Positions 164 to 34,985 of a stretch of 34,985 bases of DNA are shown one piece after another. Position 1 is the stretch's first letter; each line of letters starts with the position of its first letter. The translations under genes were made by a program, and so were the position numbers. This DNA is from Jimgerdemannia flammicorona (lineage: Eukaryota): assembly GCA_003990765.1 (NCBI GenBank), contig RBNJ01000264.1:1-34985 (forward strand), read 5' to 3'. Below the pieces are notes generated by a model, which searched no databases, was not told where the DNA came from, and was given only the letters and a program-made list of their open reading frames with translations.

Positions 164-208
164 GATGTAAACATTTAATTGTCTAATTTGGAAATCAAAA
201 CAATGGTT

Positions 209-5320: not shown

Positions 5321-5375
<55 letters not shown>

Positions 5376-12380: not shown

Positions 12381-12632
12381 ACTGGCCTAGCAGATACGGC
12401 GTCAACAACTTTTAAATTCCCTCCCGTTTGTGACTTGTTTGGAGTGTATCACTCACTGGACGTGGATAGCTGCCACAAGCTAATAGAGTCCCATACTCGC
12501 AACCTTGATTACCAGATTTAGCTCAAACAAATCAATGTCAACTGGTGTCCCCTAAGGAACAGTTCCACTCAGCAAAATCTGAAGAAAATTCTCTAGGTAG
12601 ATTCAGATATAAAAATCATGTATTGCTTATTT

Positions 12633-12707
12633 CTCTTCTATCAATATCCCTCTCTATCAATATCTCTTCTCTATTGATATCTCTTCTCTATTGATATCTC
12701 TCTCTAT
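12633..12707. repeat. Tandem array of ~16-17-bp units (CTCTAT(CA/TG)ATATCTCT)
   Basis: About 4 copies. The CA and TG variants both derive from an ancestral CG (TATCGATA), showing CpG decay on both strands at the edge of the TE block. Confidence 0.8.
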
Positions 12708-12743
12708 ATATATATTTCAGCTTAATATATATATATATATATA

Positions 12744-13207
12744 TATAATAACAAAGTAGTTATCTATGATAAAACTATATATATGTTGATAGATTTGGAT
12801 AATCTGAGTAGACTATCAGCTCTAATCTTGTGAGAAAGTATTAAGTTCCAATACTTGTTACTGAGATATAGTCCAAGTTATCACTTTTAGATTCTTATAC
12901 TGAGTAGAGATATCATACTTATATTCTAAGTTAATTAGACTCAGAATTATTAACAAGTCAGATCTGAGGATTCTTGATAAGAATATTTCTTTATTCTTGA
13001 AAGGAGAAAGTAGAGCTAAGATTATATATAATACTCAGTATAGATAGTATTTATATAGATTAAAGTTATGACTAAATATAGTATACTGAATATATCTATA
13101 TATAGTTATACTATATTATATATATATAACTATTATATTGGTTGATAATTTTATTAGAAATTTCATTAGAATTTTCAGTACTTATAATTATATAATAAAC
13201 TATTATA
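12744..13207 (-). repeat. Putative 3' LTR of element A (~460 bp)
   Basis: Termini TATAATA...TATTATA (mutated TG...CA inverted ends), abutting a purine tract on the minus strand at 13208-13221. Minus-strand TATATAAATA near 13050 and AATAAA near 12990. No second copy in the window. Confidence 0.55.
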
Positions 13208-13248
13208 TTTTTTTCTTTTTTATCTAAACCTACTTATTCAATTCTGTA

Positions 13249-13668
13249 CTAAACTCTAGATATTTGTTCAAACTAAAGAGCTATATATTAGATTATATAA
13301 AAGGTAATATTATTCTAATATTTATTAGTTAGATTAGTAATATTTTTAGAGAATATTCTACAGAGATAATTGAGAACTTGAGATTATATGCAGAAAAGAA
13401 TATATAGTCTCTTAATAATGATATAAGTATAGTTATCAATAAAAAGACAGGATAACTATTTGGCTTTATTGAGAGAAATCTGTTGATAAATGATTTATCT
13501 TATTTTATAATATTTCTTTAGTTCTTATTGATAGCAAAAGGTTTGAAAGTATTGGATTCTTTTAAGATATTATTGGACTTCATTTAGATCAGAGCTTTCA
13601 GAAATTTATATATTAATAGAGAGTAGTTTGATAGAGATCTATTAGTATTTAATAGCTATGAGAATAAC
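13249..13668 (-). pseudogene. Degenerate accessory ORF between chromodomain and PPT of element A
   Basis: 140 codons in one frame, interrupted only by TAA/TAG, which are revertible to CAA/CAG/TGG. Includes YYKIR*IIYQQIS...DNYTYIIIKRLYILFCI*SQVLNYLCRIFSKNITNLT. Start codon is not resolvable. Confidence 0.6.
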
Positions 13669-13819
13669 TATATATATATAGTAATCTTATTCTTAGTTTA
13701 TTTATAGTATTATTATTAACTATTCATATTATAGATAAGTTATCTATATATATATAATATTTGAAAGTATTTATATTTATATATTAAGAGAATATATGGC
13801 TGCTTTTTGAAAATTTCAT

Positions 13820-14900
13820 TATACTATATATTTATATTAGATTATTACTTTTTTTTATATTTAGTAGGAGATTATCCTCTTTTTTCTAAATAGTATTATA
13901 CTTAGGATAATTTTTCTATTTTATTAGATAGTGCTGAGTGAACTTGGCAGCTTATCTAAATTATTAGTTCTTATAATCTAAGATATAATTAACTTTATAT
14001 TCTGATTATTAATTAATAATAATTAGATCTAGAAATAATATAATTTTTCTATTGAAGATATTTGAAATATATAGCTGAAGTTGAGATATATAGAATACTA
14101 GATAGATTCATTTTAGAGTTATCAGAAGTTCTAATTTATATATATATAACAGATTTATATTTCTCTAAGATCTTAAATAGTTCAATATAGTAAAGTTTAA
14201 GTTTCTTCTTTAGACTTATATTATCTAGAGTCAAATATTAAGTACTGAGTAATATCTATTTATTTTTTTTATAAGAGACTTCTCTTTTATTTTTATTAGT
14301 ATATATAGCTTATATATATTCTTTATACTTCTATGAGAATATTATATACTTGCTAGATATCATCTTATATAATATTAGCAATTTTTTATATAACTGATAC
14401 TATAGCTCAGATAATAGTTATGAGAGTCTAAGAATATTATCTATGTAGTTTAAATAAAATAGAGTTATTTTAGTACTTATACTTATATTATTATTATATA
14501 GAAACTCAGTTAAGATTAGTTTTTTGTCTCAATTATTCTACTTATAGCTATAGTAGATAAATATTTTAAGTTATACTTCTAGACCTTTAAAGAGTATCTA
14601 TCAGAAATTACTTATAATTTTGTATCTCTATTAGAGATAATTATTGATAATAATCTATAGAGATGAAATATATATACTATTTCTAAAACTATTATAAAGT
14701 AGTTATTATAGAAAAATGAGTTTACTTACCAAGATGATCTATAAAAATAATAATTACATCTCTTCTCTTTTTGGTTTTTAGTAACTAAACAATAAAGTCT
14801 ATTCAGATATAGTCTTAGTTTCAGATAAGTATTTATAGTAGCTACAGTATTCTAGCTAGAGCTTAATTACTAGATTTATATCTTTGACAGATATTATAAG
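13820..14900 (-). pseudogene. Integrase plus chromodomain of element A (inactivated)
   Basis: Motifs as listed for element A, with many stops and some frameshifts. Confidence 0.8.
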
Positions 14901-15767
14901 ATATAATATGTAGTTATATTTACTAAGATTGAAAAAATATAGTTACTTTGTAACAAAATAAAGATATTGTCCTTCTTTAGTAACTATAGTTATAAAAGAT
15001 TTATACTTATTATATATAAAATAAATCTCTTATAATTCAGATTCAAAGAGAGTTTCTTTAGATTTATATACTAATTCTCAGTTCTGGTAGAAGTTAGCTA
15101 GACTTTTGGAATTTAGTCAGAAATACTAAAGTAACTTAGGTATCATTATTAAGAACTCAGAGAAATATATATAGAGGAGAGATTTCTTATATTTGGTACT
15201 TAACTAAGAGCTAGTTTATTTCAAATATAATTGCTAAAGTATTTATATATATTGACTAGATAATAGTTTATAGATTTTAGCTAAATATATATAATTAAAT
15301 TAATATATAACTACTCTATTTATTCTGTATACAAATATATTATTTATACTCAGAATAGTTTATACTCAGAATAGTCTGTTTGCTTGAGAAATAACTAACT
15401 ATTAATTAGATAATATATAGTTAAGTAATATATTTATATAGCTTTAGTATTTAGGAGTTTTGATATATCATTTTTTATATCTTTTACTTATCTCATTTAT
15501 CACTTATTTATATACTACTTATTTATAATATTATTGTTAGATTATGTAATTACCATTTATACCTCAGAATATAATTTTATTATATTTCTCTCTTAGAAAT
15601 TAATATTTATATTAATTTCTATTTTATCTATCTTAAAGTTGAGAATTAGAGAAATGATATTATCTTTATTCTCATTATTAGCATCTGTCTAACTAGTATA
15701 TGATTTAGTAGAAGTATTAATATGTAGTATAGAAAAATCAATAAGGTCTGTAAATAGTTCTTAGTAG

Positions 15768-17315
15768 TGTCATATAGTAGTTACTGAGTTCTTCAAATAT
15801 ATCAGATTCTCTTCAAGATGTATCTCTTAGACTAACTCAAGTTTGTTATAAGTAAGTTCTTATTAAAGTATCTTCCCAAGGTCTTATAGTCCTCAAACTT
15901 CTTATCTTTAAACTGTCTTGTTATTTCTTTAGATTGCTTATATGAAATTGAGGGTAAGTGAACTGGAACTGACTTTATTTTAAAGAAAATAAGAGATATT
16001 TATATAAAATATAATTCAATAGTTGCTAAGATATAAAGCTAAATATAAATTCTAATAACTAAATTAAATACTGGAACATAGAAAACTACAGTTATCAGTA
16101 TAGAATCTAGTATTAGTATAGATAGTTGTATAAGTTCAGAGTGCTGGTAGAATTCAGTAGTATAGGAAAAGAATGCTGGAAGAATTCTGAGTCACATAAG
16201 ATCAGAATACTAGTAGAAGGATTAACTATTATATAGAAAAAGGATACTGATAGAATTTGGTATCACTAAGAACTTTAAAGCAGAATGTTCAGAACTATAG
16301 GAGCTTCATCTTCATCATCACTGAAAGAGATGAGATCTGTGAATATTTTATCTATTTTGTGATATATATCACATAGGATGACATTATCACTGGTAATATC
16401 ATTATATTTGATGAGAGCTTTCCAATCTATGACATTCTCTTCCACAAAATAAGGAACAAATGTGGGATCTTGAAAAGGTCTAACCTAGATACTGGAGTCT
16501 TGGAATACTGAGATCAATCTTTGCAAGAACTGACCTGGGTTGTCCTGGAGGATGGAATTCTAGAACTCTTCTATTTTGTTACTATTGAGAGTGATAGTAG
16601 ACTAAACCTCTGTAGCTACTATAGATTCTAGTATATTGATATGATAGGCTGATAGATCTCTGAAGTCTGAGACTTTGGTATACTTTAAGTTGGTGATCAA
16701 CTATAATATATATATATCTGAAGATCTGATGAATCTTCTTGACTATCCTTATTTCATGTATATCTATGGGAGTGGTATCTTATAGCTCTTGAGGGCTGGC
16801 TTGAGGGAATTTCTGATAGAGGAGATTTCCTATTTCATATTTTTGTCACATCTGGAGACATTCAGTAGCAATAGTAGTTCTTATTTCCATCTTGTGACAG
16901 TAGAGAATATAATGATAAAGGTCATCAGTACTCAGATTAATACTAGGAGTTCTTGTAGTGTGGGTCTTTATGGCTCTTTGGATGTCTTGGAACATTCTTT
17001 CCTAGACTGAGAGGCCTTGGTGGTTTCTTGATCTTGAGGTTTGGTGAGCAGTAGGCATTTTGTTTATAATAAGTCTTTGAGCTATTTTGGGATTAGTGGG
17101 TCTTGTTGAGTTACTGCTACTGCAGTTTCTTAATTCTTCTTTTATATTCCTCAAGATGTCTGTATTGTGATCCCAATGACTTATAGTTGATCATTATTGC
17201 TCATCTTATAGTCTGGATAAGTTATACTATATGATCTTCTTGTGCTCTGATTTGGTAGCTTGTTAGGAATTGCTATCTTTTATACTGATATTATCATTCT
17301 GAGGTCATCATTACA
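15768..17315 (-). repeat. LTR copy 1 (1548 bp) of the B/C family
   Basis: Aligns by eye with 24955-26479 and 32170-33717. Confidence 0.9.
16275..17058 (-). pseudogene. LTR-internal accessory ORF, copy 1
   Basis: ATG CCT at 17058, YEIGNLLYQ motif, TAA at 16275-16277. Length is not a multiple of 3, so at least one frameshift is present. Confidence 0.6.
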
Positions 17316-19405
17316 TCTTCCTCTTGAATAAGGATCTTCTTGAATATTCTTATTCATTGGTCCAGTTCTGAAAAATTTGCTGATCCCATAACTTCTGACA
17401 GAGGGTCAAAAAGTGATATTTATAGGCTAGTATCTTTTCTATGTATTTTGGTGTGATGGTGAAGAGTTGCTTCCTTCATATAGAGTAAGGGCCTGATTCT
17501 GATATTGACTAATCAGTTGACAGTTTGAACTTCTCTGGCTTCAAAAGTCTTACAGATAAGTAGTTGCTGATGCTGTATCTCTTAGAGAATAATCCAGACA
17601 GATTGTCTGCTGATTATAGAACATATTGTTACAATTTGCAAACTAGAACCTCATAAGTAGTTATCATATTTTGCTTCTCTTATATAGATTTATGGTACTT
17701 CTTGAGTCTGTTCCTATATACTATGGTAGATAGTATAGTCTCTGAGAGTTTTCTAAGCCAGAAGGTAGTTCTCTTGATATCTTGCACATAGAAGAGTCCT
17801 TCTCATTTGGGCTCTAGTTTTCATGACTATAAGGCTTCTACTATATTTTGATATAGTAGGACCTTTTCTCCAATTTGGATGGGTTCTAGAGTCTTATAAT
17901 TCTTTTCTATATTCTTTTTTGTTAGTGCTTATATATAACTTGATGATATAATCTTCAGCCTTCTTCCTGATTTGGTATAGTCTCCAAATTTCTGAGTCAA
18001 CCTATCTCTAAGTTAGGTCTAGATTTATGGCTAAGGTTCCATCAGAATCTTCTTCTCCAAAGAACAGTTCTCTTGAAGTAAAGTATATACTCTGTGACCA
18101 TATATCTCATAGGACAGAGAGGATAGTTAGGAGGTAGTTATCCCAATTCTCATATATATATATTTGAGATCTTTACCAGGATGTTCTTAAGGGTCTTGTT
18201 AGTTCTCTCTATCTATCCATTTTCTTGAGGGTAGTATACAGTGGTCTTGATGTGCTGAATCTTGTATTTCTGATATATTATCTTATAGAATTTATTGACA
18301 AATTCTGTGCTGCAGTCTATGGTAATTTGCTTTGGTGTCTTGTAGTAGTAGATAATTTCTCAGTACAGGAAGTTGGCTATAGAGAGAGTATTGGCTTTTT
18401 GTAATACTTCTACTTCTATCTATTTAGTAAAGAGGTCTACAATAACTATAATATAGTAGTTTTCTGATAGTGTTACTGGTAGTGGTCCAATGATATCCAT
18501 TACAGTATAGTGGAAGGAGATAGGCTCAATTCTTAATAACCTGGATATCTGGTCTTACTGATATTATTTCTATTTTTAGCACTTATCATATCCTTTGACA
18601 AATTGGTACAGATCTTCTTCTATCTTGGGCCACCACATGGTTCTTCTTGCCTTATTATATGTATTGGTTTCTCCTAGGTATCCTTGTTCATGTACTTCCT
18701 TCATTACTTAATACTTTTTATATTTAGGTATTACAAGCTTTTCTCCTTTTCTGAGTATGATGTTGTCTAGTTCAAACTATTTCCAAGTCCAGTTGATGAT
18801 GGTGATTATCTAGGATTCAAGGTGGTTAGATATCTTTCACTGCTTAAATAGCCGATTAATTCATAGTATAACTCCTTATTCATATTGAATAGTCTTGATG
18901 GGGGTGTTTTGAGGTGTCCTTAAGAGTGTATCAGCATTAGTATTAGTTCTTCCTGGGTGCTACTTGAGAGTATAGTCATACTCTTGCAGCCTATAGATCT
19001 ATCTGGCATATATTTCTTTAGAGTTCAGAGTATAGAATAGCCAGGCAAGAGTGGAATGATCTGTTTGAATAGTGAAGTATTTTCTGACTAGGTAGTAGTA
19101 GAACTTGTCTACTGCCCAAACTGCTGCTAAATATTTGAGCTTGTATAACTTATAGTTCTGTTCTATTCTATAGATATCTTAGCTTACATAAGAGATAACA
19201 TATTCATGTCTATCTTTCTTCTAAGCTAGGACTGCTCCAAGTTCTATAGTACTTACATCTGTCTGCAAGATGAACTCTAGGTTCCAATCTGATCTTCTGA
19301 GGATGGGTGCTTGGGTCAACCTGGTCTTGAGTTCATTGAAGGTTTCTTGGTATTTCTTGGTCCATTCAAATTTGGTCTCCTTCTTCAGTAGCTCATAGAG
19401 GGGTA

Positions 19406-22400
19406 TTTTGTGAGAAGTGGGAAGAGGTCTGGACATTAGTGACTAAATATCTCCTTACTAAGTGAGGTATCCCTATGAGAGATATGAGTAATAGATATTA
19501 GTACTAGGATATATAGTTAGAGAGAAACAGGACTAGGGATTAGGAATTACTAGATATGATTTAAGTCTGAGATACAATAGTACTAGAGAGAGGCAGAAAG
19601 GATGTGGGGTACCTAGAAGAAGCAAATAAGGTGGGCCTCTCAGAGGTTGGTAAGAGTGTTGGCAACTTGGGCAGATCTGGCAAATGAGGGAGTGGAGGGG
19701 GATTGGTAGCTACAGTAGACCAGGCTAGAGATAGAGAAACTGAGGGGCATTCTGAGACAGAGAGAGGATCTACAAGTTAAGAGCATGGCTGCCAGGCTAC
19801 AGTAGCAGAGATTGGAGAAGAAAGAATGGTTTACTAAGTTTTTATCATAGCTGTTGCAGGTGAGGAAAGTCTGGCAGTAGTGGGAGAGAGTTCTGGATGA
19901 GGCTGGGGAGTTGGTTGTAGGGACACTAGAGATCCTGGACCAGTTGAGCAAGCAGTGGGGACATCTGTGGAGTAAGAAGAATGGTGGAGAGGGAGTATTG
20001 GATATTGACAGATACTTAGAGGAATGGTACTCTGATCTGGTAGCAGGTTTAGAAGATCTTGATGCTGCTGTCTAGAGAAAGGAGATTCAGCAAGTTTTGT
20101 AGATAACAAGCTCTGAAACTATACCTGGAGAGGATGGTTTATAGTGGAATTTCTGTAAGAAGATGATAGGAGTTGAGCTAGCTCTGGAGAAAATAATGAT
20201 AATATGTGATGAAGTAATAGGCTCTGGAGTATAGATTGGAGGGCAGAGCTTAGGCCTTATGGCTCTACTGTTTAAGTATAAGGAGAGAAGAAAGGAGTGA
20301 AAAAACTGGAGGCTAATCATACTTCTAGATATAGATTACAAATTGGTCATGAAGGTACTGATGGCTAGGCTGCAGAGAGTGGCTCAATAGATTCTATGGG
20401 CTGAGCAGAGAGGATTTATAGGGGGTTGCCTAATTAGAGATAGGACAGTCTGAGTATATAGTATTATTGAGGATATATATACTACTAGGGTAGATGGATG
20501 ACTGGTTTTCTTAGACCAGGAGAAGGCCTATGACAGAGTCCAGCAAGTATAGTTGAAAAGGGTACTAAAGTATATTAGAGTCTCTCATGGGGTCTAGTAG
20601 GCTATAGTCAGTCTGTTGGAGGGAAGTTGGGTAGTAATTATGGTAAATAGACATAGAGAGTATTCTTTTTCTCTGAGCAAAGAAGTGCTACAGAGAGATC
20701 CACTATTACCAATACTATATGCACTGTCTTTAGAGTTACTTCTAGATAGAATATAGTATAAGGTGAGAGGGTTGGACATACTAGGGGTTAATTAAAAGGT
20801 GGGGGCTTTTGCTAATAATATAGTGGTCAGGCTTAAGTCAGTTACAAATGTTATAGTACTAAAGAGTACAGTAGAGTGATATGAGGGGTGCTCTGATACT
20901 AAGCTCAACTAGTATAAGTATGAGATCTTAGTACTGGATAGAGAAATAGTGAGTGGGAATATAATTGGAATAATTGTCTCAGTAGGAGAGACTGTTTACT
21001 ATCTAGGAATTTACTTTTCAGTATATGACTTCTTATTACTATACAAGTAATAGGAGCAGAGATTGACTGAGTGGAGAAGTACCCTCTTGGGGTAGGGTAG
21101 TTAATATATTTCTCTGGCAGGAAGGATAATAATAATGAATATATACTAACTATCTAAGCTATAGTATTTAGGATATTACTTAGACTTTCTAGTATAGATG
21201 GTCAAGTAACTTCTAAAGATAGCCAGAACCTAGATATGGGTAGAGTGATAGAGTCAGATTAGTTGAGAGATATTGACTTAGTCAGTGGATAGGAGAGGTC
21301 TAAGGCTGGTGAATTTTCTCAAGTATCTTTACTGCTTGAGAGTATGGTGGCTGAAGTGAGTGAGTAAGTTGAGGGACAGAGAGTGAGTTCTCCTCATATA
21401 GGAGATATGGGAAGTCTGATTCTCTCCCCATGATGCAACCAGAGATCTTCTGTCTTTGGTGACTTTGAAGGATAGTCAGAGGATATTATATAGGAGATTC
21501 TGATGGAGAGTAATTGTTGGGATATATTATATTGATCTCTGATAAAGGAGAAATAAGAGAGAGAAGAAATAGAGACTCCAGATATAGAGGTAGAACTAAC
21601 TTCTATTGGGTGGAGTACTAGTGAATAATTTCTACTTAGAAGATAACATAGAGTGTCTTCAGGAATACAGGAGAGACTTGTGGCCAGAGGCATGACAGAG
21701 GGTAGAGATTGGTAAGAAGTGGGACTGAAATAGTATTTAGCAATGGGGTGAACAGATAGTAAGATAAATTCCCCCCAAGTTCTGAGTAGTATAGTAGAGA
21801 GTTTTATAGTATAATATTATATTAAACTACCAGATAGACTACTTGGTAGAAGAGAGTACTTAAGAGTGTGAGAAGTGTCTAAATATTGAGTAGGAGAGAG
21901 GAGTGGTATAGACTCCTGAACATTGACTGAGAGAGTATAAGGTAATGAGAGACTTTTGAAGAGAGATTGAGGTGCAGTTAGAGGTGCACTCACTAGAACT
22001 AATAGCAGGAGGGAGGTGGGGTGATCTTTGAAGGAGGCTGGTGGGGGGGTGGGAGATGAATAGCTAACATTAGGATAAGTGCTGGTAATTAGAGTTAATA
22101 TAGTGAGTCATTGGCTTTTGGTATTTGAGAAGAGTCAACAGCTATTATTGAGGAGAAGAGTGGCTAGATAGAAGTGGCTAATACTGAATATATTAAGTGG
22201 GTAGTAGAGGGGTGAGGGTATAGATAGAAGATATCACTAGTGGCTAGAGATAATCTATACAAAGAGTGAGAGAAGGATTGGGATGGTAAAGAGATGAGTA
22301 GTATTTTGGAATAATAGTAAGAGAGAGAGGGATTTTCCAAGTAAGATTGGGTGAGGAGTACATTTGTATTAGTAGTATATTATAGATAGTTTGATAATAA

Positions 22401-22441
22401 ATTAGAAGTCTACAAGACTATAAAAAAAAAAAAAAAAAAAA
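19406..22441 (+). mobile_element. Degenerate non-LTR retrotransposon (LINE, L1/Tx1-like), 5'-truncated ORF2
   Basis: Plus-strand RT motifs PGEDGL (~20124), KNWRLIILLDIDYKL, LDQEKAYDRV (~20511), VLQRDPLLP (QGDPLSP) and AFANN (FADD, ~20805). C-terminal CEKC...TPEH...(C) knuckle near 21870-21940, AATAAA at 22396-22401 and an A20 tail at 22422-22441. Confidence 0.9.
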
Positions 22442-22900
22442 TCCAGAAATGACAGTAATCTTATTCCTAAGAAATTATAAAATAGAGCTAAGCCAGATAT
22501 CTCACACCTATAGATATTTAGAAGTGAGACTTATATTCTAGATAAAAGTAGTAATAGAGATAAATTTGAATCTAAAGTAGATAAATATATACTTCTTAAA
22601 TATGATAGAGCAGTATATAGATTATGAAATCCATAAAAGTAATATATAGTTATCTCTTATAATATTCAATTTAAGGAGACTAAAGAGTAGAAAATTTATA
22701 TAGAAATTTCTATCTTGAACAATCTAATAATATAGCCAATAATATCTATATTAACTTCAAAGATATCTTTAGTATATATATTAGTATCAGTACAACTCAT
22801 ATATATATCAATAAGGCTATTAGAGCTAAAAATTACAGAAATTATAAATAAAAATGATAATGAGGATACTTCTCTAAAAGGTAAAAAAAATATATATATA
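22442..22900 (+). mobile_element. Ty1/Copia pol fragment (post-integrase region)
   Basis: IPKKL*NRAKPDISHL*IFRSETYI...RDKFESKVDKYILLKYD...YRL*NP...VISYNIQFKE, reverting to the Copia pattern TPxExWxGxKPDISHLRVFG...K..K...C.LLGY...YRLWNP...SRNV.F.E. Right boundary is approximate. Confidence 0.8.
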
Positions 22901-23616
22901 AATCTAGGCTATATAGTGAGATTGAAATATAGAAATATATAGAAAATAGTACTATATATATATCTAGAATATACTCCAACAGAGTATATAATAACAGATT
23001 TATTAACTAAAGTTCTTTCAAAGACAAAGTTTGACTTATATATACAAAAAATGAGACTTATAGATAACTCTATACCAATGAGTAATTCTATACAAGTAAG
23101 TAGCAATTATATTTTAGTAAATAGGAACTATTTACCAGTAAGTAACAAGTAATAGTAATAATGACAATATAGCAATAATAAGAAGTTTTTCAGAGTGCTA
23201 AAAAACATCTCACTATATCTTATATATATTCATTAACATTACTTATATTTCTTTATTTATAAATAGATCTAAATTATATTGAGAGTAATCTTTCATCAAT
23301 ATTACTCAGAATTACTAATCTTTTACTATATTTTTTATCTATTTTCATACTTATAAGTAGAAAATTTTGATCTTTTTTGGTCATATAGATAGTATCTAGT
23401 TGGTCATATCTAGTTAGTATTTTATTTGTATTCTGGGATATATATATTTTATTGAACAAGAGTGTGAAAATATCTTAATTATAGCAACTCAATATATAAT
23501 AGTACAGCCTGACTATATTATTATTATAAGATATATATTATCAATATATATATAAATATATAAGCTAGTAATAAAGAATACTACTATCTCTTCTTTCTTT
23601 TAAATATTTCATAACA

Positions 23617-23848: not shown

Positions 23849-23876
23849 TACTCAGTAAGCCATAGAAAGATAATAG

Positions 23877-24330
23877 TATTCTACTGAGCTGCAAGCTATA
23901 GAGGAATTCTTTGACAGTATTCAAAGTATTATATAGACTCATCTATTACAAATTTTATACTTTAGAGTCTACCAATATTATGCTAAGTTTCAAAAGTACT
24001 TCAAGTTGGAAAAATTACTAAATAAAAAAGACATGACTAAAGAAGAATAAATTGCAAAGTACCAGATATTTTACACTCAGATTACTATAGCTAAGTAAGT
24101 CTATAAACTATTTAAAAATAATAAGTAAGCTTTAGTCTATTTCTAAAGAGAATATAATTGAGCAGATTATATAATATAAGAATATACAATTGATCAAAAT
24201 ATAGAAGTTTAAATAAGATGATTCAGAAGTGAAATAACTTATTTAAAAAAAAGTTATAATAATTGATCTAAATTAAAAATAACAATCAAAAGATAGATAT
24301 TGATTGTAGTATCTAAATCTAATTTTTAAT
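23877..24330 (+). pseudogene. Degenerate ORF resembling the accessory ORFs of elements A/B/C
   Basis: One frame: ...QKYFKLEKLL...YTQITIAK*VYKLFKNNK*ALVYF*REYN*ADY. Stops are revertible by transitions. The host element is not identified. Confidence 0.4.
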
Positions 24331-24954
24331 ATAGTATAACATTATAGTTTAGCAGTTACTTAATCTCTCAGTTATATAATTTGTATAATTATATAAAAAG
24401 TATAGATATATAGATATATTGATCTCTCAACTATATGAAATAACTTATAGAAAAAGAAGTTTTAACTTAACTACTATATAGCTAGTAAACCTATATAAAT
24501 ATATATCTTTAGTATATATTGTAATATAGTGGACATATGTATAACTAGAGAAATGCAGCAGATTTCTATAACTCTTCTTGACTTCTCAGAGTCATAAGTA
24601 ATATTTATCTAATCTCATTATCAGACTATCAGAGTGAGGTTCAAACTTTTTAACCTAAGGTTTATTCACTTTAGATACTGAAATATTTATATAAGTTTGC
24701 TAGCTATAAAGTAGCTAAGTTATGACTATATTTCTTATGAGTCACTTTTTATAAGTATAGATTCTCTATATCTGTAAAATCTCTATATTTGTAAAGTTTC
24801 TACATTTGTGAAATAATTGTAATCATATATCTATTTCCTATTTCTATTTTATACTATATATTACATCTTTCTCCTAAATAGATTATTTTTGATGTAAAAA
24901 TACCTATTCAAATTTCTACATCTCAATATTTATATATTTGTTCTCTCTATATAG

Positions 24955-26479
24955 TATCATATAGTGATTGCTGAGTCCTTCAAATATATCAGATTCTCTT
25001 CAAAGTATATCTCTTAGACTAACTCAAGTTTATTATAAGTAAGTTCTTATTAGAGTATCTTCCTAAGATCTTATAGTTCTCAAACTTCTTATCTTTAAAC
25101 TGTCTAATTATCTCTTAGATTGCTTATGTGAAATTGAGGATAAGTAAACTTGACTGACTTTATTTTGAAGGAAATAAGAGAGGTATTTATATAAAATATA
25201 ATTCAATAATTGCTAAGATATAAAGCTAAATATAAATTCCAATAACCAAATAAAATACTGGAACATAGAAAACTACCAAGTTCTAGTATTAGTACAGATA
25301 GTTGCACAAGTTCAGGATACTGGTATAATTTTGGTGATATAGGAAAAGAGTGCTGGAATAATTCTGAGTCATATAAGGTCAGAATGCTAGTAGAGGAATA
25401 GCTATTATACAGAAAAAGAATGCTGGTATAATTTAGTATATATAACTAAGGGACTTAGAGTAAAATGTTCAAGACCATAGGAGCTTCATCCTTATTATTG
25501 CTAAAGGAGATGAGATCTGCAAACATTTCAGTCTCATTATATAGATTGCACATTTTACATATATTGCACAGGATGACATCATCACTGATGACATCATCAT
25601 ATTTGACAGTAGCAGGGAGAGTGAGGAGATCTGAGACTCTTCAGTCTATAAGGTTCTTTTCCACAAAATAGAGAATAAATATAGAGTCTTGGGGAGGTCT
25701 GATCTAAATGCTGGGATCTTAGAATGTGGAGATCAATCTTTGCAGGAATTGATCTGGGTTGTCCTGGAGAATAGGATATCAGAACTCTTCTATCTCATCA
25801 CTATTGAGGGTAATAGTAGACTGGGCTTTTGTTACCACTCTGGCTTCTAGTATATTGATATAGCAGACTAACAGATCTCTAAAGTCTGTGACTCTAGTAT
25901 ACTCTAAGTTGGGGATCAATCATAGTGCATACCTGAAGATCTGATGAATCTTCTTAGCTATCCTTATTTTATATATATCTATAGGAGTGGTATCTTGTAA
26001 CTCTTGAGGGCTGGTCTGTAGGAACTCTTGATAGAGAAGATTTTCTATTTTATACTCCTGCCACATTTGGAGGTATTCAGTAGCAATGGTAATCCTTATT
26101 TCTATTTCACAGTAGTAGAGAATATAATAATAAGAATCTCTAATATCTAGGTTGAGACTAGGAGTTCTTCTTGTGTAAGTTCTCATAGCTCTTCTGATAT
26201 CTTGAAACATCCTTTCTTCAACTGAGAGGTCTTAGTGGTTCCTTGATCTTGAGGTTTAGTAAGCAGCAGGTATTTTGTTTATAGTAAGTTTTTGAGTTAT
26301 TTTGAGATTGGTGGGTCTTATTGAGTTACTGCTACTATGGTTCCTTGATCCTTCTTTTATATTCCTCAAGATGCCTATACTATGGTCATAATGACTTACA
26401 GTTGGTCATCATTACTCATCTCATAGTCTGGGTGAGTCATACTATATGATCTTCTTGTACTCTGATCATCACTGTTACA
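24955..26479 (-). repeat. 3' LTR of element C (1525 bp)
   Basis: TATCATA...TGTTACA, adjacent to the PPT. Has a ~45-bp deletion near 26465 relative to the other two copies. Confidence 0.9.
25455..26273 (-). pseudogene. LTR-internal accessory ORF, copy 2 (273 codons)
   Basis: Start mutated to ATA at 26273. The supplied ORF 25920..26210 is part of this frame. TAA at 25455-25457. Confidence 0.7.
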
Positions 26480-26489
26480 TCTTTCTCCT

Positions 26490-29400
26490 AAATAAGAATC
26501 TTCTTAAATATCCTTATTCATTAGTCCAGTTCTGAAAAATTTACTGATCCCATAACCTCTGGCAGGAGGTTGAAAAGTGGTATTTATGGGCTGACATCTT
26601 CTCTATATATTTTGATATAATGGTGAAGGATCACTCTCTTTATATAGAGCAAGGGTCTAATTCTGATCTTGATCAATCAGTTGATGGTTCAAACTCCTCT
26701 GGCTTCGAAAGTCTTATAGATAAATAGTTGCTGGTGCCATATCTCTTAAAGAATAGTCCAGACAGATTGCCTGCTAGTTATGGAATATGCTGTTATGATT
26801 TGCAGACTAGAACCTCATGGGCAGTCATTATATTTTACTTCTCTTATATAGGTTTATGGTACTTCTTGAGTCTGTTTCTGTATACTGTGGTAGGCAGTAT
26901 AGTCTCTATAAGTTTTTTTAGCCAGAAGATAGTTCTTTTGATATCTTATACATAGAAGAGTCCTTCTCATTTAGGCTCCAGTTTTTGCAACCATGAGGCT
27001 TCTACTATATTTTAATATAGTAGGACCTTTTTTCTGATTTATATAGATTCTAGAGTCTTGTAATTCTTTTCTGCATTCTTTCTCATCAGCACTATAACTT
27101 GATGATGTAATCTTCAGCCTTCTTCCTGATTTGGTATAGTCTTTGGATTTCTGAGTCAACCTGTCTCTAAGTTAGGTCTAGATTTGTAGCTGAGGTTCCA
27201 TCAGAATCTTCTTCTCTAAAGAGCAGTTCTCTTGGAGTAAAGTGTATACTCTGTGATCATATGTCTTATAGGATAGAGAGGATAGTTGGGAGGTAGTTAT
27301 CCTAATTTTTATATGTGTCTGAGATCTTCACTAGGATGTTCTTGAGAGTCTTATTAATTCTCTCTATCTGTTCATTTCCTTGAGAGTGGTATACAGTGGT
27401 CTTGATGTGCTGAATCTTATATTTCTAATATATTATCTCATAAAATCTATTGACAAATTCTGTGCTGTAGTCTGTAGTGATTTGCTTTGGTATCTTGTAG
27501 CAGCAGATGATTTCTCAGTATAAGAAGTCAGTTATGGAGAGGACATTGGCTTCTTGTAATATTCCTGCTTCTATCTATTTGGTAAAGAGGTCTACAATAA
27601 CTATAATATAGTGATTTTCTGATAGTATTACTAGTAGTAGTCCAATGATATCCATTGTGATGTGGTGGAAGGAGATAGGCTCAATTCTTAATGACCTGGG
27701 TATCTGGTCTTGCTGATCTTATTTCTGTTTTTAGTACTTATCACACTCTTTGACAAATTAGCACAGGTTTTCTTCTATCTTGGGCCACCATATAGTTCTT
27801 CTTGCCTTATTATATATATTGATTCCTCCTAGGTATCTTTGTTCATGTACTTCCTTCATTACTTGATACTTCTTGTGTTTGGATATTACAAGCTTTTCTC
27901 TTTTTCTGAGTATAGTATTGTCTAGTTCAAACTATTTCTAAGTCTGGTTGATGATGGTGATTGTCCAGGGTTTAAGGTGGTTAGACATCTTCTACTGCCC
28001 AAGATAGCTGATTAATCTATAGTATAACTCCTTATTCATATTGAATAGCCTTAATGAGGGTATTTTAGGGTGTCCTTAAAAGTACATCAGTATTGGTATT
28101 GGTTCTTCCTGGGTGGTACTTGATAGTACAGTCATACTCTTGCAGTCTATAAATCTATCTGGTATATATTTCTTTGAGGTTCAGAGTGTAGAATAGCCAG
28201 ATAAGAGCAGAATGATCTGTTTGAATAGTGAAGTATTTCTCAGCTAGGTAGTAGTGGAACTTATCTACTGTCCAAACTACTACTAAGTATTTAAGCTTAT
28301 ATGACTTGTAGTTCTGTTCTGCTCTATAGATACCTCAGCTTATATAGGAGATGACATATTCATATTCATCTTTCTTCTGAGCTAGGACTGCTCTAAGTCC
28401 TATAGTACTTATATCTATCTACAAGATGAACTCTAGGTTCCAATCTGGTCTTCTGAGGATGAGTGCTTGGGTCAACCTGGTCTTGAGTTCATTGAAGGTT
28501 TTTTAGCATTTTTTGGTCCATTTGAATTTGGTCTCCTTCTTCAGTAGCTCATAGATAGATGCTGCAATATTGGAGTATCCTTTGATGAATCTTTTGTAGT
28601 AGGAGGTCAGTTCAAGAAAGGCATGGACTTTCATAGTTATTCTGGGTCTTAGGTAGGCTACAACAGCCTCAATCTTTGTGGATTCTGGTCTGGTTGATGA
28701 GGTATCCTAGGTAGGTAATTTCCTGAGCTACAAACTTATACTTCTTAGACTTGATGTAGAGGCCATACTTCTTGAGCTTCTTGAGGGCCAGCTATATATA
28801 GTTGATATGTTCTCATATAGTATTGCTGAAGATAATCACATCATCAATATAGACAAAGAGCCATTTTTCAATTTCATTACTGAAGACTCTGTTCATCATT
28901 CGCTGAAAACTTGCTAAGGCATTATACATTCCAAATGGCATTTGCAGATAGATATAGGTAGTATTAGATATAATGAAGGCTGATTTCTCACTGGCATCTT
29001 GAGTGAGACCAATCTGATAAAAGTCTGAGAACAGATCCAAGGTGGTGTAGTATTTGGCTTTACTTCCAAGAGTGGTAAGAATTTCTTGAATATTAGGTAA
29101 GGGCTGTCTATTCTTCTTGGTGATTGTATTGAGCTTTCTGTAGTCAATATAGAGTCTTGGGGCAAACTCTCCAGGCTTGTTTCCTTTCTTTGGAGCAAGG
29201 ACAATGGGTGAAGCCCAGAGACTGATAGCTTGCTTGATGATTCCAGCTTCTTTTATTTCCTTGAGTTCTGCTTGCAGCTATTCTCTATAGACAAGTGGTA
29301 TAGGTCTGGTTTTCTGATAGATGGGCTTGATATTACTGGTGTCAACTTCATTGTAGTACTTGGGTTCTTAATTGTAGATATCTCTGAAGTCTGTAGCAAG

Positions 29401-32100
29401 TACTTCTTCATTCTGGTATAGAATCTTAAGAAGTTGTTCTTCCAGGAGAAAGTTTTTTCCAATGGTATATGTGTGCTTATTCTGATTCTTGTCTTTCTTG
29501 TACTCAAGTTTGGTAATCTTGGTGGTAGCATAGGCTCCTCTTCCAGTAGATCCAAAGCCTTGTTCTCCTCTCTTGGTCTTAATGAGTTTAATGGCTTCAG
29601 TAATCTTGGGCTTCTTGATTTCATGGATCAGCATCTGGTCAATCCTGTCATACTTCTTGACTTCAAATGGGGTGGTGGGGTTGTGATTCCTGACTATGAG
29701 GAAGATCTCATCAGTATAATCAGATTCAATTACTCCTCCTTTAGCTGAGATTTTGCTTTTGGCCAGACTGCTCCTATCTTAATAATTCCAGTATAGATCT
29801 CTGGCAACTTGACTCCAATTTCAGTACCAAGTAGAGTGGTAGTCTGTAGTTCAAGGATAACATCTTAAATGCTAGCAAGGTCCATTTCTATGACTCCTTC
29901 AGTCTTATATTCTAGGATCTTAGCTTCAGGATAAAACTTCTTAACCTTGAGAGTGATGTCTAGTTCTTGTTCCTCCTCATCATCACTGTTAGCTTGAAGC
30001 TCTGGGGGCTGGTCATCTTCTTTGGCTTTCCTTTTTGCTTTAGCAGCTTCTTGCTTATACTTCTATTGGCAGATTTTCCTGACTTCACTGATATAGGACC
30101 AGCAGTCATTCAGGTGTTCAGAGTAGTATCCTAGTACCATGGGGGCATCTTTCTTGAGGAGTATAGCCATTGATGATCTTATTGTACCACTGCTCATCTG
30201 TGAGCTTGGGTGTCTTATTCTTGTTTTTATTCACCAAGTACATGAAGACTTCTGTGTTCTCTTCATCTCCTTTCTTCATATCTAGTAGAACTTCTTTGTG
30301 GACATTGATAGAGACTTGTACCTTTCTTCCTCTATAATTAATCTACATCTTCTGAAAATTGAGGTCAATGATGGTCTTGGCCTTATGAAGCCATTAGTTA
30401 CTGGTGAGGATGTCATAGTTAGTGGTACTTGTAATAATCACATCTACTGGAATGGTAGCTCCTCTTATCTTGATGAAGACTTCTTGGATTTTACTAAGGG
30501 GAGTAGCTTGTGTACCATCTGCTGTAATATAGACCATCTTGGTAGACTCTTCAATGTCTCAACCTAGGCAGTCAATTGCCTTCTTGCTTATGAGGCATCC
30601 TCCAGCACTAGTATCAATGATGACATCAAAGATACAATCTTCAATCTGATATAGAGTATAGGCTGATGTTTTGCACTGGTCTTCAGGTTTTTCACCTGAG
30701 TCTTCTTGATTATCTTTTTGTATATTGTGAGCTTCTATAATCTTATAATCTTGATTCTTGGCAGTAGTTGCAAGTCTTACTCTCAACTGTTATCTAAAGA
30801 TAGGGACTTTGGCTAGTTATCCAAAAGTAGCATTGACCTTCTGTTCCTTGAGGTCCTTATAGATATCATACTGGTAGATCTTAGTCTTGTACAACTTCTA
30901 TTCCTTCTTGCTTTTACTTTCTTCTAAGACTAGAGTAGTACCTTCAATAATTTGACAGGCAGCTTTATCTAACTCTATATCTTGATCAATCTCCTTAAGT
31001 TGGGTCTTACTTTAGATAGTGATAGCTGGAGTCTTCTTCAGTCTTCCAACTGGCTTACTGTTGTTCTTCTTGTCATAGAACTTGGACTGGGTTCTGGTAC
31101 CTTCAGTAGTAGAGTAGAATTTAAGCTCTTTATAGTATTCTTCATCATCAGTATCATCAATCTCCTTGATAACTACTATATTAGTTTGTTCTTTGGTTCT
31201 GGTAGTATTACTTAGTTGGACTTTACATCTTATTTTAGTTATATAACTCTTTGTATAGTAGCCTTCTTCTTCATATATAAAGTATGTAATATTGCTTTCT
31301 TCTATAGCAGCTGCAAATCTCTATACTGGTCTTCTGTTGGTACTTCAGACTTCTCTAACAATATCACTAAGGTATGCAGTCATCTTAGCAAACTATGTAC
31401 TTGGTGAGTTCCTCCACTAGGTTAGCTTTGGCTGCCTTGGGGATAAGTGGGAATATTTGTCTGTTTACAACTATAGTAGGTATGATACTAGTTGGCTTTG
31501 ATGGCTCCATCTTGATGCTAGTTATTTTCTCTATTGAGTGTTTGGCAGAATATCAGACAGTCCAATATCTCTATGCAAAGACCACTTTCTGATCAAGAGT
31601 CAGTGCAGCTAGGGTAGATTAGATTGCTAGAGCAATTTCAGAGTAAACTCCTTTAAAGAAGGTTGAATCTGCTATTTGTTTCTTGAGGTGGTCATCATAG
31701 TCAGCCAAGATAATCTGGTGGCAGATTTAGGTATAGAATGAGTTGGGATCTTCACTAAGTTCCTGGCAGATAGTGTTGAGTTGATCCTTGAGAGCTTGCT
31801 TGATTACTTCAGTATAATATATAGTTCTAATGAAGGTCTTCATGTTGACAAGTCTGGCTACACTAGCATCACAATGATGACTATATTGAACTTATCTCTA
31901 GCAGGTCCTCTGAGGCTGACTGATAGAAGGGCCAATTGTACATCTACATTGAGGGCTTGTATAGTGGCAAATTGTTCAAAGTTTTCAATAAAGGTCAGGA
32001 TTGACTCTTCAGTAGTATATCCATAGAATGTAGGGGGATGTATTTCTATCTTATCTTGAATTCTTATAAGAGTAACTCTTGTAGTCAGAGTAGTTGTTAT
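26490..32100 (-). pseudogene. gag-pol polyprotein of element C (many stops, a few frameshifts)
   Basis: Approximate domain order: gag 32100-30800, PR 30680-30300, dUTPase 29957-29542, RT 29400-28500, RNase H 28480-28060, IN 27900-26850. Confidence 0.88.
29542..29957 (-). pseudogene. Trimeric-type dUTPase domain within pol
   Basis: All five motifs are recognisable: (AG)MDL, RSSLA, GVIESDYT(G)EI, DRI(A)Q and RGEQGFGSTG. One 1-nt frameshift near 29778. Confidence 0.9.
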
Positions 32101-32373
32101 GGTGGTTGTTCATTTTTTAGTTTAAAAGTAAGGAATTCATCTTGAATTACCAATCAATGGATACCAAGTTATTACATAGTAGTCACTAAGTTCTTCAAAT
32201 ATGTCAGATTCTCTTCAAAGTATATCTCTTAGACTAACTCAAGTTTGTTATAAGTAAGTTCTTATTAGAGTATCTTCCCAAGGTCTTATAGTCCTCAAAC
32301 TTCTTATCTTTAAACTGTCTTATTATCTCTTAGATTTCTTATAAGGAATTGAGAGTAAGTAAACTTAACTGAC

Positions 32374-32408
32374 TTTATTTTGAAGGAAATAAGAGAGGTA
32401 TTTATATA
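32374..32408 (-). promoter_or_regulatory. LTR core promoter / poly(A) signal (TATATAAATA at 32408-32399, AATAAA at 32379-32374)
   Basis: Motifs are conserved in all three LTR copies, ~210-240 bp from the LTR 3' end. This places the LTR ORF in U3. Confidence 0.55.
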
Positions 32409-32663
32409 AAATATAATTCAATGATTGCTAAGATATAAAGCTAAATATAAATTTCAATAACCAAATAAAATACTGAAATATAGAAAACTGTTAAGTTCCA
32501 GTATTGACACAGATGGTTGTATAGGTTCAGAATACTGGTATAATTTCAGTAATACAGAAAAAGAGTGCTAATAATTCTGAGTCACATAAGGTCAGAATGC
32601 CAGTAGAGGAATAGCTGTTATATAGGAAAAGAATGCTGGCATAATTCAGTATAACTAAGAAAC

Positions 32664-33461
32664 TTAGTGCAGAATATTCAGAACCATGAGAGCTTTATCT
32701 TCATTAGAGGTCAGAATGTCTTTGAAGGAGATAAGATCAGTTTTGTCATATATTTTACATATGTCACATAAGATGATATTATTGCTGATGATGTTATCAT
32801 ATTTAGTAGTGGGGAAATCAGAGGCTCTCCAATCTATAAAGTTCTCTTCTACAAAATAGAGAACAAATATGAGATCTTAGAGAGGTCTGACCTAGATACT
32901 GAGGTCTTGGAATATGAAGATCAATCCTTATAGAAATTGATCTGAGTTGTTCTGGAGGATGAGATATCAGAACTCTTCTACCTCATCACTATCAAGAGTA
33001 ATAGTGGACTGGGCTTCTGTTGCCACTCTGGCTTCTAGTACATTAATATGATAGACTGACAGATCTCTGAAGTTTATGACTCTAGTATACTCTAAGTTGG
33101 AGATTAATCATAATATATGCCTGAAGATCTGATAAATCTTCTTAGCTGTCCTTATTTCATATATATTCATAGAAGTAGTATCTTGTAACTCTTAAGGACT
33201 GGTCTGTGAGAACTCCCAGTAGAGAAGGTTTCTTATTTCATACTTCTGCTATATTTGGAGATATTTAATAGCAATAGTGATCCTTGGTTCCATTTCATAA
33301 CAGTAGAGGATAAAGTGATAAGGATCTCTAGTACCCAGGTTGAGATTAGGAGTCCTTCTTATACAGGTCCTCATGGCTCTTCTAATATCTTAGAACATCC
33401 TTTCTTTGACTGAGATACCTTAGTAGTTTCTTAACCTTGAGGTTTGGCAAGCAGCAGGCAT
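32664..33461 (-). pseudogene. LTR-internal accessory ORF, copy 3 (266 codons, no frameshift)
   Basis: Runs ATG CCT GCT GCT to ...AAT ATT CTG CAC TAA over 798 nt. Every internal stop is TAA/TAG/TGA, revertible by a single transition, and most are sense codons in another copy. TATAAAAG lies upstream at 33549-33542. Confidence 0.75.
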
Positions 33462-33721
33462 TTCATTTGTAGTAAGTCTTTGAGCTATCTTGGAATTAGT
33501 GGGTCTTGTTGAGTTGCTGCTACTGTGGTTCCTTGATCCTTCTTTTATATTTCTCAAGATACCTATACTGTGGTCACAATGACTCATAGTTGATTATTAT
33601 TACTTATCTATAGTCTGGATAAGTCATACCATATAATCTTCTTGTGCTCTGATCTGGTGACTTATAAGAAATTACTATCTCTTATGCTGATGTCATTATT
33701 CTGAGGTCACTATTACAACAG

Positions 33722-33911
33722 ATAGAGTAGAGAGAGAATTGGGATAGCTGGAAGAATAGTAGTATTCTAGAGAAATAGAGAGAAGAAGAGAAGAGACCTC
33801 TCAGAAGATTGAGTGAGGGGAGTCTATATTGATATAATATAAATTGGTAATCAGATAATAAAGTGGAAGTCTAAGTAACTATAAAAAAAAAAATAATAAT
33901 AATAAAAAAAA
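33722..33911 (+). mobile_element. Short 3' fragment of a LINE related to 19406-22441, with a degenerate A tail
   Basis: GATAATAAAGTGGAAGTCTAAGTAACTATAAAAAAA versus GATAATAAATTAGAAGTCTACAAGACTATAAAAAAA at 22393-22441. Upstream ATTGGGAT...AGTAGTATT also match. Confidence 0.75.
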
Positions 33912-34700
33912 AGAGATCTACTTTAATATATACTAATAAAAAGATAATTAAGAAATTATAAGATTTTAGAGACTGAATGAGATAGTTGAAAGACTGAAGT
34001 CTAGAGGTTAGTGAGTTTATTAGTATTATTTTATAAAGTAATATATTTGACAAGACTATATTTTATAGTAGTCTAAAATACTATAAATATTAGAATAATT
34101 ATTCATAATTATAAGAATAAATTTGAAATCTTTAATTCTGCCAAAATGTAAATAGATATAATAATTATCAGCACAATATAGAATATTACAAATTGAGTGA
34201 AAATTATTAAAAAATATACTTAAATAAATAAATAAATAAATAAATAAGATATTAAATCAATTATTAAAAAGAAGTCTTATATATATAAATCTACAACTAT
34301 TTTATTTTGAGTACATATAAGTCTATTTATTTGAATATATTTGAATATATATAAGTTATAAGCTAAAGCTATTAAAGTTGAATTTCTAAAAAAAATCTTA
34401 GTTCAAACTATATAAAATAAATCAAATTAAATTTTACTTTGTTTAATATAATAATAATAATAATATATTAAATATTTTAATTTTAATTTTTATATTAAAT
34501 AATTATTATAAATTTTATACAATATTATAAAATATATTATTTCCATTTTAGAAATTATAACTAATAGCCAAAATTTAACTCAACTTTATAAAAAATTCCT
34601 CTGAATTTATAACATTATTAAATAAATAAGTAAATATTTCTATAAAACCCATTTTTTATTTTTTATTTTTTATTTTTTTTATGGTGTTCTATACTTTTTA
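33912..34700. other. Extremely AT-rich, CpG-free, unassigned decayed repeat sequence, including (TAAA)n near 34221-34246
   Basis: Composition matches the mutated TE block and no diagnostic motif was recognised. CpG reappears at ~34763. Confidence 0.4.
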
Positions 34701-34985
34701 AAGTTTGCTGAGGTTTATAGATTGACAGAACTGTAGATGAAAGTTACCTGTTGCCAGATTCTCGAGAATGAAGTTTCTTACCTTTAAATATCGGCCCTCT
34801 CTGGTTACTTGAATTTTCTCAACTGTTATCTTTGAAGTTCCGATGCTCTTTCCTTAACGCTAACAAAAAGGCTCGACCTCAAACTTGAGCGAAGCTAACT
34901 AACTGAAAAAATGATCGATGGTGATGCATCCAAAATGTTGTACTCATAAAAGCCAATACTCTATCTAAACAGATGATACCAAAAA

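What the first reader, a model, noticed from the sequence alone, without database searches (positions are those of the whole stretch)
12540..34750. RIP-like transition hypermutation of all repeat classes in an apparently non-ascomycete fungus
Seen: only a handful of CpGs in 22 kb (noted by eye at 18853, 26706, 28901) and strong TpA excess. Differences between LTR copies are almost all C/T or G/A (TGTCATATAG / TATCATATAG / TATTACATAG). TGG, CAA, CAG and CGA codons are converted to stops in Gypsy, Copia and LINE alike, so non-CpG sites (mainly CpA/TpG) are hit too. The load is stratified, with element A far more AT-rich than C. Established: classical RIP is an ascomycete process (CpA>TpA, RID-dependent), and CpG-centred variants are reported in some basidiomycetes. 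Inference: if the host is Mucoromycota, this points to a poorly described repeat-directed mutator or very heavy methylation-driven deamination.
Basis: partly seen in the sequence, partly recalled or inferred. Interest (0 to 1): 0.7.

Follow-up and report, generated by a model that had tools for sequence, protein, structure and literature searches.

The report
Repeat-confined C-to-T decay in Endogonales
In this early-diverging mycorrhizal fungus, transposons of every class are slowly destroyed by C-to-T mutation, fastest at CG but also at CA and CC, while neighbouring genes are spared; the pattern fits DNA methylation by DIM-2-type enzymes better than the burst-like RIP defence known from ascomycetes.

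Summary
Observation confirmed. 12540-34750 holds 3 CpG (529 expected). The twin LTRs of one Ty3 element differ by 219 transitions and 8 transversions. The host is not an ascomycete: proteins match Endogone and Jimgerdemannia. In young Ty3 copies, C>T per site is CpG 35%, CpA 7.8%, CpC 5.6%, CpT 1.4%, against T>C 0.19%. Unique-DNA controls show no such context bias. It is not classical RIP, however: CpG leads, CpC is close to CpA, and mutations show no strand bias or clustering in four of five tests. No RID was found; three DIM-2-type methyltransferase genes were. Best reading (0.6): heavy DIM-2-type methylation of transposon chromatin, then one-at-a-time deamination. Main rival (0.27): an enzyme-driven DIM-2 mutator, as in Zymoseptoria. 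No methylome exists here, so the mechanism is inferred. The scan has noted this before on at least 8 other pieces of this genome. My searches found no paper describing it in Endogonales.

The parts
1..345 (.). End of a young, high-copy MITE-like DNA element; CpG retained (internal control)
   Evidence: 4607 candidates, best 40 scored at 97-99% identity; 16-24 CpG per copy in 30 fetched copies, many with CpG-null flanks
346..12498 (.). Unmutated host gene region: D-amino-acid-oxidase-like (-), NFD4/MFS-like (+), BRE4/FUSC-like transporter (-, start codon at 12380); last CpG at 12498
   Evidence: Pfam DAO E 9.5e-6 and NFD4_C E 4.6e-4 (both below cut-off), BRE4 E 7.3e-6; 49% to an Endogone protein; spliced contigs; CpG o/e about 1
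12540..15760 (-). Element A: most decayed repeat, probably Ty3/chromovirus integrase-chromodomain region
   Evidence: GC 20.8%, 0 CpG, CA/TG o/e 0.61; multi-copy; no Pfam hit; class assigned from recalled motifs only
15768..19399 (-). Element B: LTR plus integrase region of the same Ty3 family as C, cut by the LINE
   Evidence: 81.9% to 24952-28555; 276 transitions vs 7 transversions against C internal
19400..22440 (+). LINE (non-LTR) remnant ending in a poly-A run
   Evidence: RVT_1 E 6.9e-12 read through stops; 25 copies aligned, ts/tv 6.0; 0 CpG
22450..23100 (+). Copia-type fragment
   Evidence: SH3_retrovirus E 8.3e-14; RNase H C-terminal motif recalled; GC 22%, 0 CpG
23100..24950 (.). Unassigned AT-rich decayed repeats, with a 21-nt tandem array and an inverted repeat
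   Evidence: GC 21.8%, 0 CpG
24955..33717 (-). Element C: full-length Ty3/Gypsy with twin LTRs (24955-26480, 32170-33717), dUTPase, RT and integrase; 4-bp target duplication ATAG/ACAG, itself differing by one C>T
   Evidence: RVT_1 E 2e-17, dUTPase E 8e-15; rve E 7.9e-6; LTR alignment and flanks
33718..34750 (.). Second LINE 3' end (33724-33903) and AT-rich tail; CpG resumes at 34763
   Evidence: 69% to 22263-22442; GC 18.2%, 0 CpG

Best explanation
Transposon DNA is marked as heterochromatin and methylated by the host's DIM-2-type methyltransferases, most heavily at CpG, partly at CpA and CpC, little at CpT (inferred; no methylome). Methylated cytosines deaminate one at a time on either strand and are often left unrepaired (inferred). 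Copies therefore lose CpG first, then CpA and CpC, and drift to about 20% GC with many stop codons (shown). Genes, including duplicated genes outside this chromatin, are spared (shown for the cases tested).
For: Rate order CpG >> CpA > CpC >> CpT in two overlapping sets of young Ty3 copies; the same order among non-CpG sites in older Ty3, LINE and family A, where CpG is saturated. This matches the methylation order given for Dim2 in Zymoseptoria: CG highest, then CA, CC, CT almost none (PMC8016269, passages and S8 legend). Phycomyces, a Mucoromycota with DIM2, methylates transposons in CG and CHH (PMC11258239 passages). No strand heterogeneity between copies (chi2 16.5/29, 20.8/24, 18.7/19, 15.8/19), no same-strand runs, half-to-half strand correlation 0.00; one-strand bursts averaging 3 or more are disfavoured at p<0.003 in those four tests. 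Load is graded: CpG survival 0-45% in the older set, youngest MITEs 4% CpG>TpG and under 0.5% elsewhere. Three DIM-2-type loci with PCQ and ENV motifs, intact CpG in the two checked. Kinase duplicate 89.7% identical over 1.7 kb: ts/tv 3.2, flat contexts.
Against: Rates are very high for passive decay: CpG 195-321x and CpA 27-43x the T>C rate, against roughly 10-15x recalled for mammalian CpG. A TDG/MUG-type glycosylase exon is present (motif reading recalled), so repair is not plainly absent. In Zymoseptoria methylated CG was not mutated while CA was, so methylation does not map simply onto mutation. One test showed CpA strand overdispersion (chi2 53.1/29); it vanished on longer alignments of a largely overlapping set. 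Load varies about 4-fold among copies without tracking transversions (rho 0.13), so age and chromatin effects are not separated. No methylation data for this organism were seen.
Confidence: 0.6

Rival explanations
1. An enzyme-driven, RID-independent mutator: one of the three DIM-2-type paralogs, alone or with an unknown deaminase, actively converts C to T in transposon chromatin, distributively, in mitosis or over many weak sexual rounds.
For: Magnitude of non-CpG rates, 27-43x T>C at CpA. DIM-2-type genes are present in three divergent copies, 27-34% identical, against one Dim-2 listed for Phycomyces (PMC7862722 table). DIM-2 alone drives C>T in Neurospora premeiosis (bioRxiv 10.1101/115501 passages) and in Zymoseptoria mitosis.
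Against: Both known DIM-2 mutators are strongly CpA-specific (>98% CA in Zymoseptoria; 'very strong' CpA preference); here CpG is about 7x CpA and CpC is 0.65-0.7x CpA. No clustering. No APOBEC_N match (one family only, weak).
Confidence: 0.27
2. Classical RIP: homology-triggered, RID-dependent, premeiotic bursts.
For: Nearly pure transitions, all repeat classes hit, sharp border 118 bp upstream of a gene start. Amselem 2015 found CpA signatures only in species with RID/Masc1 (PMC4352252 section 12). The assembly is fragmented, so RID could be missing from it.
Against: Neurospora RIP clusters are 91.9% one-strand (PMC7296669 passages); not seen here. Three searches returned 7 distinct contigs with cytosine-methyltransferase matches, none RID-like. 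A 90% kinase duplicate and 98-99% identical MITEs keep their CpG. Host is not an ascomycete.
Confidence: 0.06
3. APOBEC/AID-type editing of retroelement cDNA, or reverse-transcriptase error.
For: Three of the four main elements are retroelements.
Against: Both strands are hit equally at CpA (0.075 vs 0.083); twin LTRs of one insertion have diverged, which needs mutation after insertion; TpC is the least favoured 5' context for CpA and CpG, the opposite of the recalled APOBEC3 motif.
Confidence: 0.03
4. Ordinary neutral drift with a genome-wide transition bias, or an assembly artefact.
For: Unique DNA is itself transition-rich: 24 of 29 listed strain differences.
Against: Those differences are context-flat (CG 8, CC 7, CT 5, CA 4) and ts/tv is lower than in the LTR pair (Fisher p 0.009; kinase pair p 6e-9). 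CA vs CT odds ratio is 10 in the LTR pair and 0.6 in the kinase pair. The same spectrum recurs across dozens of contigs.
Confidence: 0.02

Closest known systems
Dim2-dependent mitotic C>T mutagenesis in Zymoseptoria tritici (PMC8016269)
   Same: DIM-2-type enzyme, transposon-confined, nearly all transitions; its methylation order CG > CA > CC >> CT equals the mutation order here
   Different: There >98% of mutations are at CA and methylated CG is spared; here CpG dominates and CpC is substantial. Ascomycete with RID vs Mucoromycota with none found
Tuber melanosporum transposon signature (PMC4352252 section 7)
   Same: Transposon-rich genome with CpG plus CpA C>T signatures
   Different: Tuber has RID/Masc1 (section 12); no CpC signature is reported in the sections read
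RID-dependent RIP and its DIM-2/DIM-5/HP1 branch in Neurospora crassa (PMC7296669; bioRxiv 10.1101/115501)
   Same: Repeat-confined C:G>T:A, stop codons, AT-rich relics
   Different: Clustered, one-strand, CpA-centred, homology-triggered; none of the first three holds here
CpG-only signatures in Basidiomycota with Dnmt1/Masc2 (PMC4352252)
   Same: CpG is the top target; no RID
   Different: Non-CpG sites are also hit here at 18-43x T>C; TpCpG, the recalled rust/smut hotspot, is the weakest CpG context here (0.21 vs ACG 0.51)
Transposon methylation in Phycomyces blakesleeanus (PMC11258239)
   Same: Same phylum, nearest named homologue of two of the three host enzymes, 5mC in CG and CHH on transposons
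   Different: No mutational decay described in the passages read; one DIM2 plus one DNMT1 there

Membership tests
Classical RIP | Repeat-confined excess of C:G>T:A transitions | tested here: met
   ts/tv 27 in LTR pair, 15.8 in 30 Ty3 copies, vs 4.8 and 3.2 in unique controls
Classical RIP | CpA is the preferred target | tested here: not met
   CpG about 7x CpA after saturation correction
Classical RIP | Clustered, one-strand mutations per round | tested here: not met
   No strand heterogeneity in 4 of 5 tests, no polarity runs; very many tiny rounds cannot be excluded
Classical RIP | RID/Masc1 gene present | tested here: inconclusive
   None among the loci from PF00145, TIGR00675, PF12047 and a DNMT1-type query; no RID sequence was available as query, search is exon by exon, assembly fragmented
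Classical RIP | Triggered by homology whatever the sequence | tested here: inconclusive
   One 89.7% x 1.7 kb kinase pair among 30 loci is spared; one case, under purifying selection; MITEs are short and selected for youth
Classical RIP | Premeiotic timing | not testable with these tools
   Needs crosses or progeny sequencing
Zymoseptoria-type Dim2 mitotic mutator | Intact DIM-2-type gene | tested here: met
   C8187, C3657, C11271 carry motif I, PCQ and ENV; best PDB hits 9BAQ/9BAP (recalled as Neurospora DIM-2) above animal DNMT1; tree had no fungal Masc2 reference and is a quick tree
Zymoseptoria-type Dim2 mitotic mutator | Mutation restricted to CpA, CpG spared | tested here: not met
Methylation-driven transposon decay | 5mC on the mutated contexts | not testable with these tools
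   No methylome
Methylation-driven transposon decay | CpG-first, strand-symmetric, cumulative loss | tested here: met
Methylation-driven transposon decay | CpG maintenance enzyme (DNMT1/Masc2 or DNMT5) | tested here: inconclusive
   No separate canonical DNMT1 found; DNMT5 not searched with a suitable query

The most novel reading that the evidence does not exclude
Endogonales run an active, RID-free repeat mutator built on an expanded set of three DIM-2-type enzymes. This would place DIM-2-mediated mutagenesis before the split of Mucoromycota and Dikarya and make it the likely ancestral form of RIP.
Probability: 0.25. Interest if true: 0.85.

Novelty: new variant of a known kind. Interest (0 to 1): 0.55.

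Why it matters
Papers read here state that RIP-like signatures are confined to Ascomycota (PMC12543289 abstract and section 9) and undetected in Mucoromycotina (PMC8647823 passage). This genome shows strong repeat-confined, non-CpG C>T loss with no RID found, an exception to the reported CpA-with-RID link (PMC4352252). Standard RIP indices mostly miss it because CpG decay refills CpA/TpG (3 of 43 windows pass). It offers a natural test of whether DIM-2-type methylation alone can destroy transposons. It also warns that LTR dating here is badly inflated: element C's LTRs differ at 15.9% of columns but only 0.56% by transversion.

Tried and rejected
Ascomycete host: rejected. CpA loss as a mere by-product of CpG decay: rejected, since columns whose 3' neighbour is invariant A still show 19.2% T vs 0.44% T>C. 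Strand-biased bursts: a hint did not replicate. LINE G-richness as one-strand mutation: rejected, all 25 copies share it and the strand rate ratio is 0.93. Missing T:G glycosylase: not supported, a TDG/MUG-type exon exists. C1744 as RID or DNMT5: it reads as another DNMT2-like gene (by resemblance to L002/L003). C11271 as canonical DNMT1: it groups with C8187 and Phycomyces proteins. Pfam could not classify element A. A structure search with an intron-containing frame found nothing useful. Orthologous transposon copies from another strain: the four public runs did not give usable cover of the block beyond other copies of the Ty3 family. Only 1 of 20 extended loci held both LTRs (93 transitions, 9 transversions). 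Literature searches for Endogonales plus RIP terms returned no paper describing this; the library lacks most subscription papers, including the original Endogonaceae genome paper, which I did not see.
Full report
OBSERVATION. The block 12540-34750 has 3 CpG at the stated positions, against 529 expected from its base composition and 853 in the first 12.5 kb. GC falls from 51% to 31%. The border is sharp: the last CpG is at 12498, 118 bp upstream of the start codon of a minus-strand transporter gene. TpA is only moderately raised (o/e 1.11 vs 0.73), and 3 of 43 sliding windows pass strict RIP indices, 22 of 43 a composite index above 0.

ANATOMY. The block is a nest of dead elements: A (20.8% GC, class from recalled motifs only), B (LTR plus integrase, cut by a LINE), a LINE (RVT_1), a Copia-type fragment (SH3_retrovirus), unassigned repeats, and C, a full-length Ty3 with twin LTRs, dUTPase, RT and integrase.

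HOST. The window's transporter has one hit, an Endogone protein at 49%. A methyltransferase exon from the same genome is 99% identical to a protein named Jimgerdemannia flammicorona. The host is thus Endogonales, Mucoromycota. No DAO/MFS tree was built.

SPECTRUM. C's two LTRs were identical at insertion (4-bp target duplication ATAG/ACAG) and now differ by 219 transitions and 8 transversions in 1430 columns; per-site mismatch is 0.39 at CA, 0.37 at CC, 0.06 at CT. I fetched 30 of 40 scored Ty3 matches (2965 candidates), 25 of 40 LINE (3576) and 20 family A loci (1655); these are best BLAST hits, not random copies. Pairwise ts/tv is 15.8, 6.0 and 4.7. To exclude CpG by-products I used only columns whose 3' neighbour is invariant: in Ty3, CpA 19.2% T, CCH 14.3%, CpT 4.4%, against T>C 0.44% and C>A 0.2%. 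Querying with the least mutated copy gave 30 younger copies, 93-98% alike: CpG 974/3130, CpA 762/11802, CpC 400/9239, CpT 141/11299, T>C 96/38128. Twenty longer copies, most of them from the same set, gave 0.352, 0.078, 0.056, 0.014 and 0.0019. Corrected for saturation, CpG is about 7x CpA and 195-321x T>C; CpA is 27-43x T>C. A 5' A favours and a 5' T disfavours mutation at CpG and CpA. Column labels came from frequency thresholds, so very heavily mutated columns are under-counted.

CONTROLS. Of 29 strain or allele differences listed for 400-12500 (table 3 shows only the best supported; 107 rows were not shown), 24 are transitions, spread CG 8, CC 7, CT 5, CA 4. These are transcribed regions under selection and unpolarised. 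Among 30 of 150 kinase loci, one pair is 89.7% identical over 1.7 kb: 98 transitions, 31 transversions, flat contexts, CpG kept. A young MITE at 1-345 keeps its CpG even inside CpG-null flanks (53/1340 CpG>TpG, 6/2443 non-CpG; 30 best of 4607 candidates, so biased to youth). Across 20 hand-spaced contig starts, 164 of 365 500-bp bins have CpG o/e below 0.1 and 86 have 0.6 or more: the process is genome-wide.

IS IT RIP? Neurospora RIP gives clusters, 91.9% on one strand (PMC7296669, passages). Here copies do not differ in strand ratio: chi2 16.5/29 (older Ty3), 20.8/24 (LINE), 18.7/19 for CpA and 15.8/19 for all non-CpG in the longer young set, with half-to-half correlation 0.00. Neighbouring mutations share polarity about as often as the null (largest excess 0.564 vs 0.535 +/- 0.012 at 2-10 bp). 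Against this, the 3-kb young set gave CpA chi2 53.1/29, which the longer alignments did not reproduce. Independent one-strand bursts averaging 3 or more are disfavoured in the four negative tests. Many very small rounds remain possible.

ENZYMES. PF00145, TIGR00675, PF12047 and a DNMT1-type protein query found three DNMT1-superfamily loci (C8187, C3657, C11271) and DNMT2-like pieces (C58, C2181, C1744). All three large genes carry motif I, PCQ and ENV. The C8187-type protein has RFD, DUF7893, BAH and methylase domains and hits PDB 9BAQ/9BAP (recalled as Neurospora DIM-2; E 6e-39) above animal DNMT1 (1.5e-25). A quick tree puts all three with Phycomyces, Gigaspora, Basidiobolus and Trichoderma proteins, apart from two long outgroup branches; it lacked a fungal Masc2 reference, and the naming of the Phycomyces pair is disputed (PMC7862722 passages), so 'DIM-2-type' is the safest label. 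No RID-like locus appeared, but C11271 itself was missed by PF00145, so sensitivity is limited. APOBEC_N gave 0 candidates. A TDG/MUG-type exon is present.

MECHANISM. Shown: repeat confinement, context order, strand symmetry, graded load, enzyme genes. Inferred: methylation in these contexts and its conversion to T. The context order equals that reported for Dim2-dependent methylation in Zymoseptoria (PMC8016269, abstract, passages, S8 legend), and Phycomyces methylates transposons in CG and CHH (PMC11258239, passages). I give passive deamination of DIM-2-type methylation 0.6 and an active distributive DIM-2 mutator 0.27; the size of the rates is the main reason the second stays open.

LITERATURE. 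Badet and Croll 2025 (PMC12543289; abstract, section 9, passages, three rows of supplement 1; files 13-19 not searched) call RIP-like signatures unique to ascomycetes. Their table holds three Endogonales, but k-mers were counted only on scaffolds above 50 kb and the two Endogonaceae assemblies have N50 near 11 kb, so little of them would pass (my inference). Dallaire 2021 (PMC8647823, passages) says RIP signatures are undetected in Mucoromycotina. Elya 2024 (PMC11105155, passages) reports index-based hints in Entomophthorales, so claims outside Dikarya exist. Amselem 2015 (PMC4352252; abstract, sections 7 and 12) links CpA signatures to RID. Also seen as passages only: PMC13297926, PMC7928374, PMC12210899, bioRxiv 10.1101/115501. 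Searches found no description for Endogonales; the original genome paper was not seen.

EARLIER SCAN NOTES. Eight notes on other pieces of this genome report the same pattern (run after my reading was formed). They are not independent evidence.

VERDICT. Real, genome-wide and apparently undescribed in this lineage; works like methylation-linked transposon decay with an unusually strong non-CpG arm; not a member of classical RIP. New variant of a known kind, interest 0.55.

Noticed in passing
window 29368-29778 (-): The Ty3 element carries a dUTPase domain upstream of RT (E 8e-15).
   Followed up: no
window 1-345: End of a very young MITE-like family, 4607 candidates, best copies 98-99% identical, often at contig ends; looks like a recent burst.
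   Followed up: partly
window 15768-15900: Run X1 (guessed RNA) has contigs of depth about 5000 on this LTR end, carrying G/C where the window has A/T; possibly a transcribed, less mutated copy.
   Followed up: no
window 19400-22440: The LINE coding strand is very G-rich (G:C about 2.8:1) in all 25 copies, a family trait rather than mutation bias.
   Followed up: partly
G000 C8187, C3657, C11271: Three divergent DIM-2-type methyltransferase paralogs, 27-34% identical, all with catalytic motifs.
   Followed up: yes
G000 C58, C2181, C1744: At least two DNMT2-like genes; C58 and C2181 may be halves of one gene split by the assembly.
   Followed up: no
young Ty3 alignment: Third-base effect on non-CpG loss: CAC/CAT 0.09 vs CAA/CAG 0.045; CCT 0.065 vs CCG 0.027. 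May report enzyme flanking preference.
   Followed up: no
window 34763-34985: CpG resumes in an AT-rich stretch at the contig end; identity unknown.
   Followed up: no
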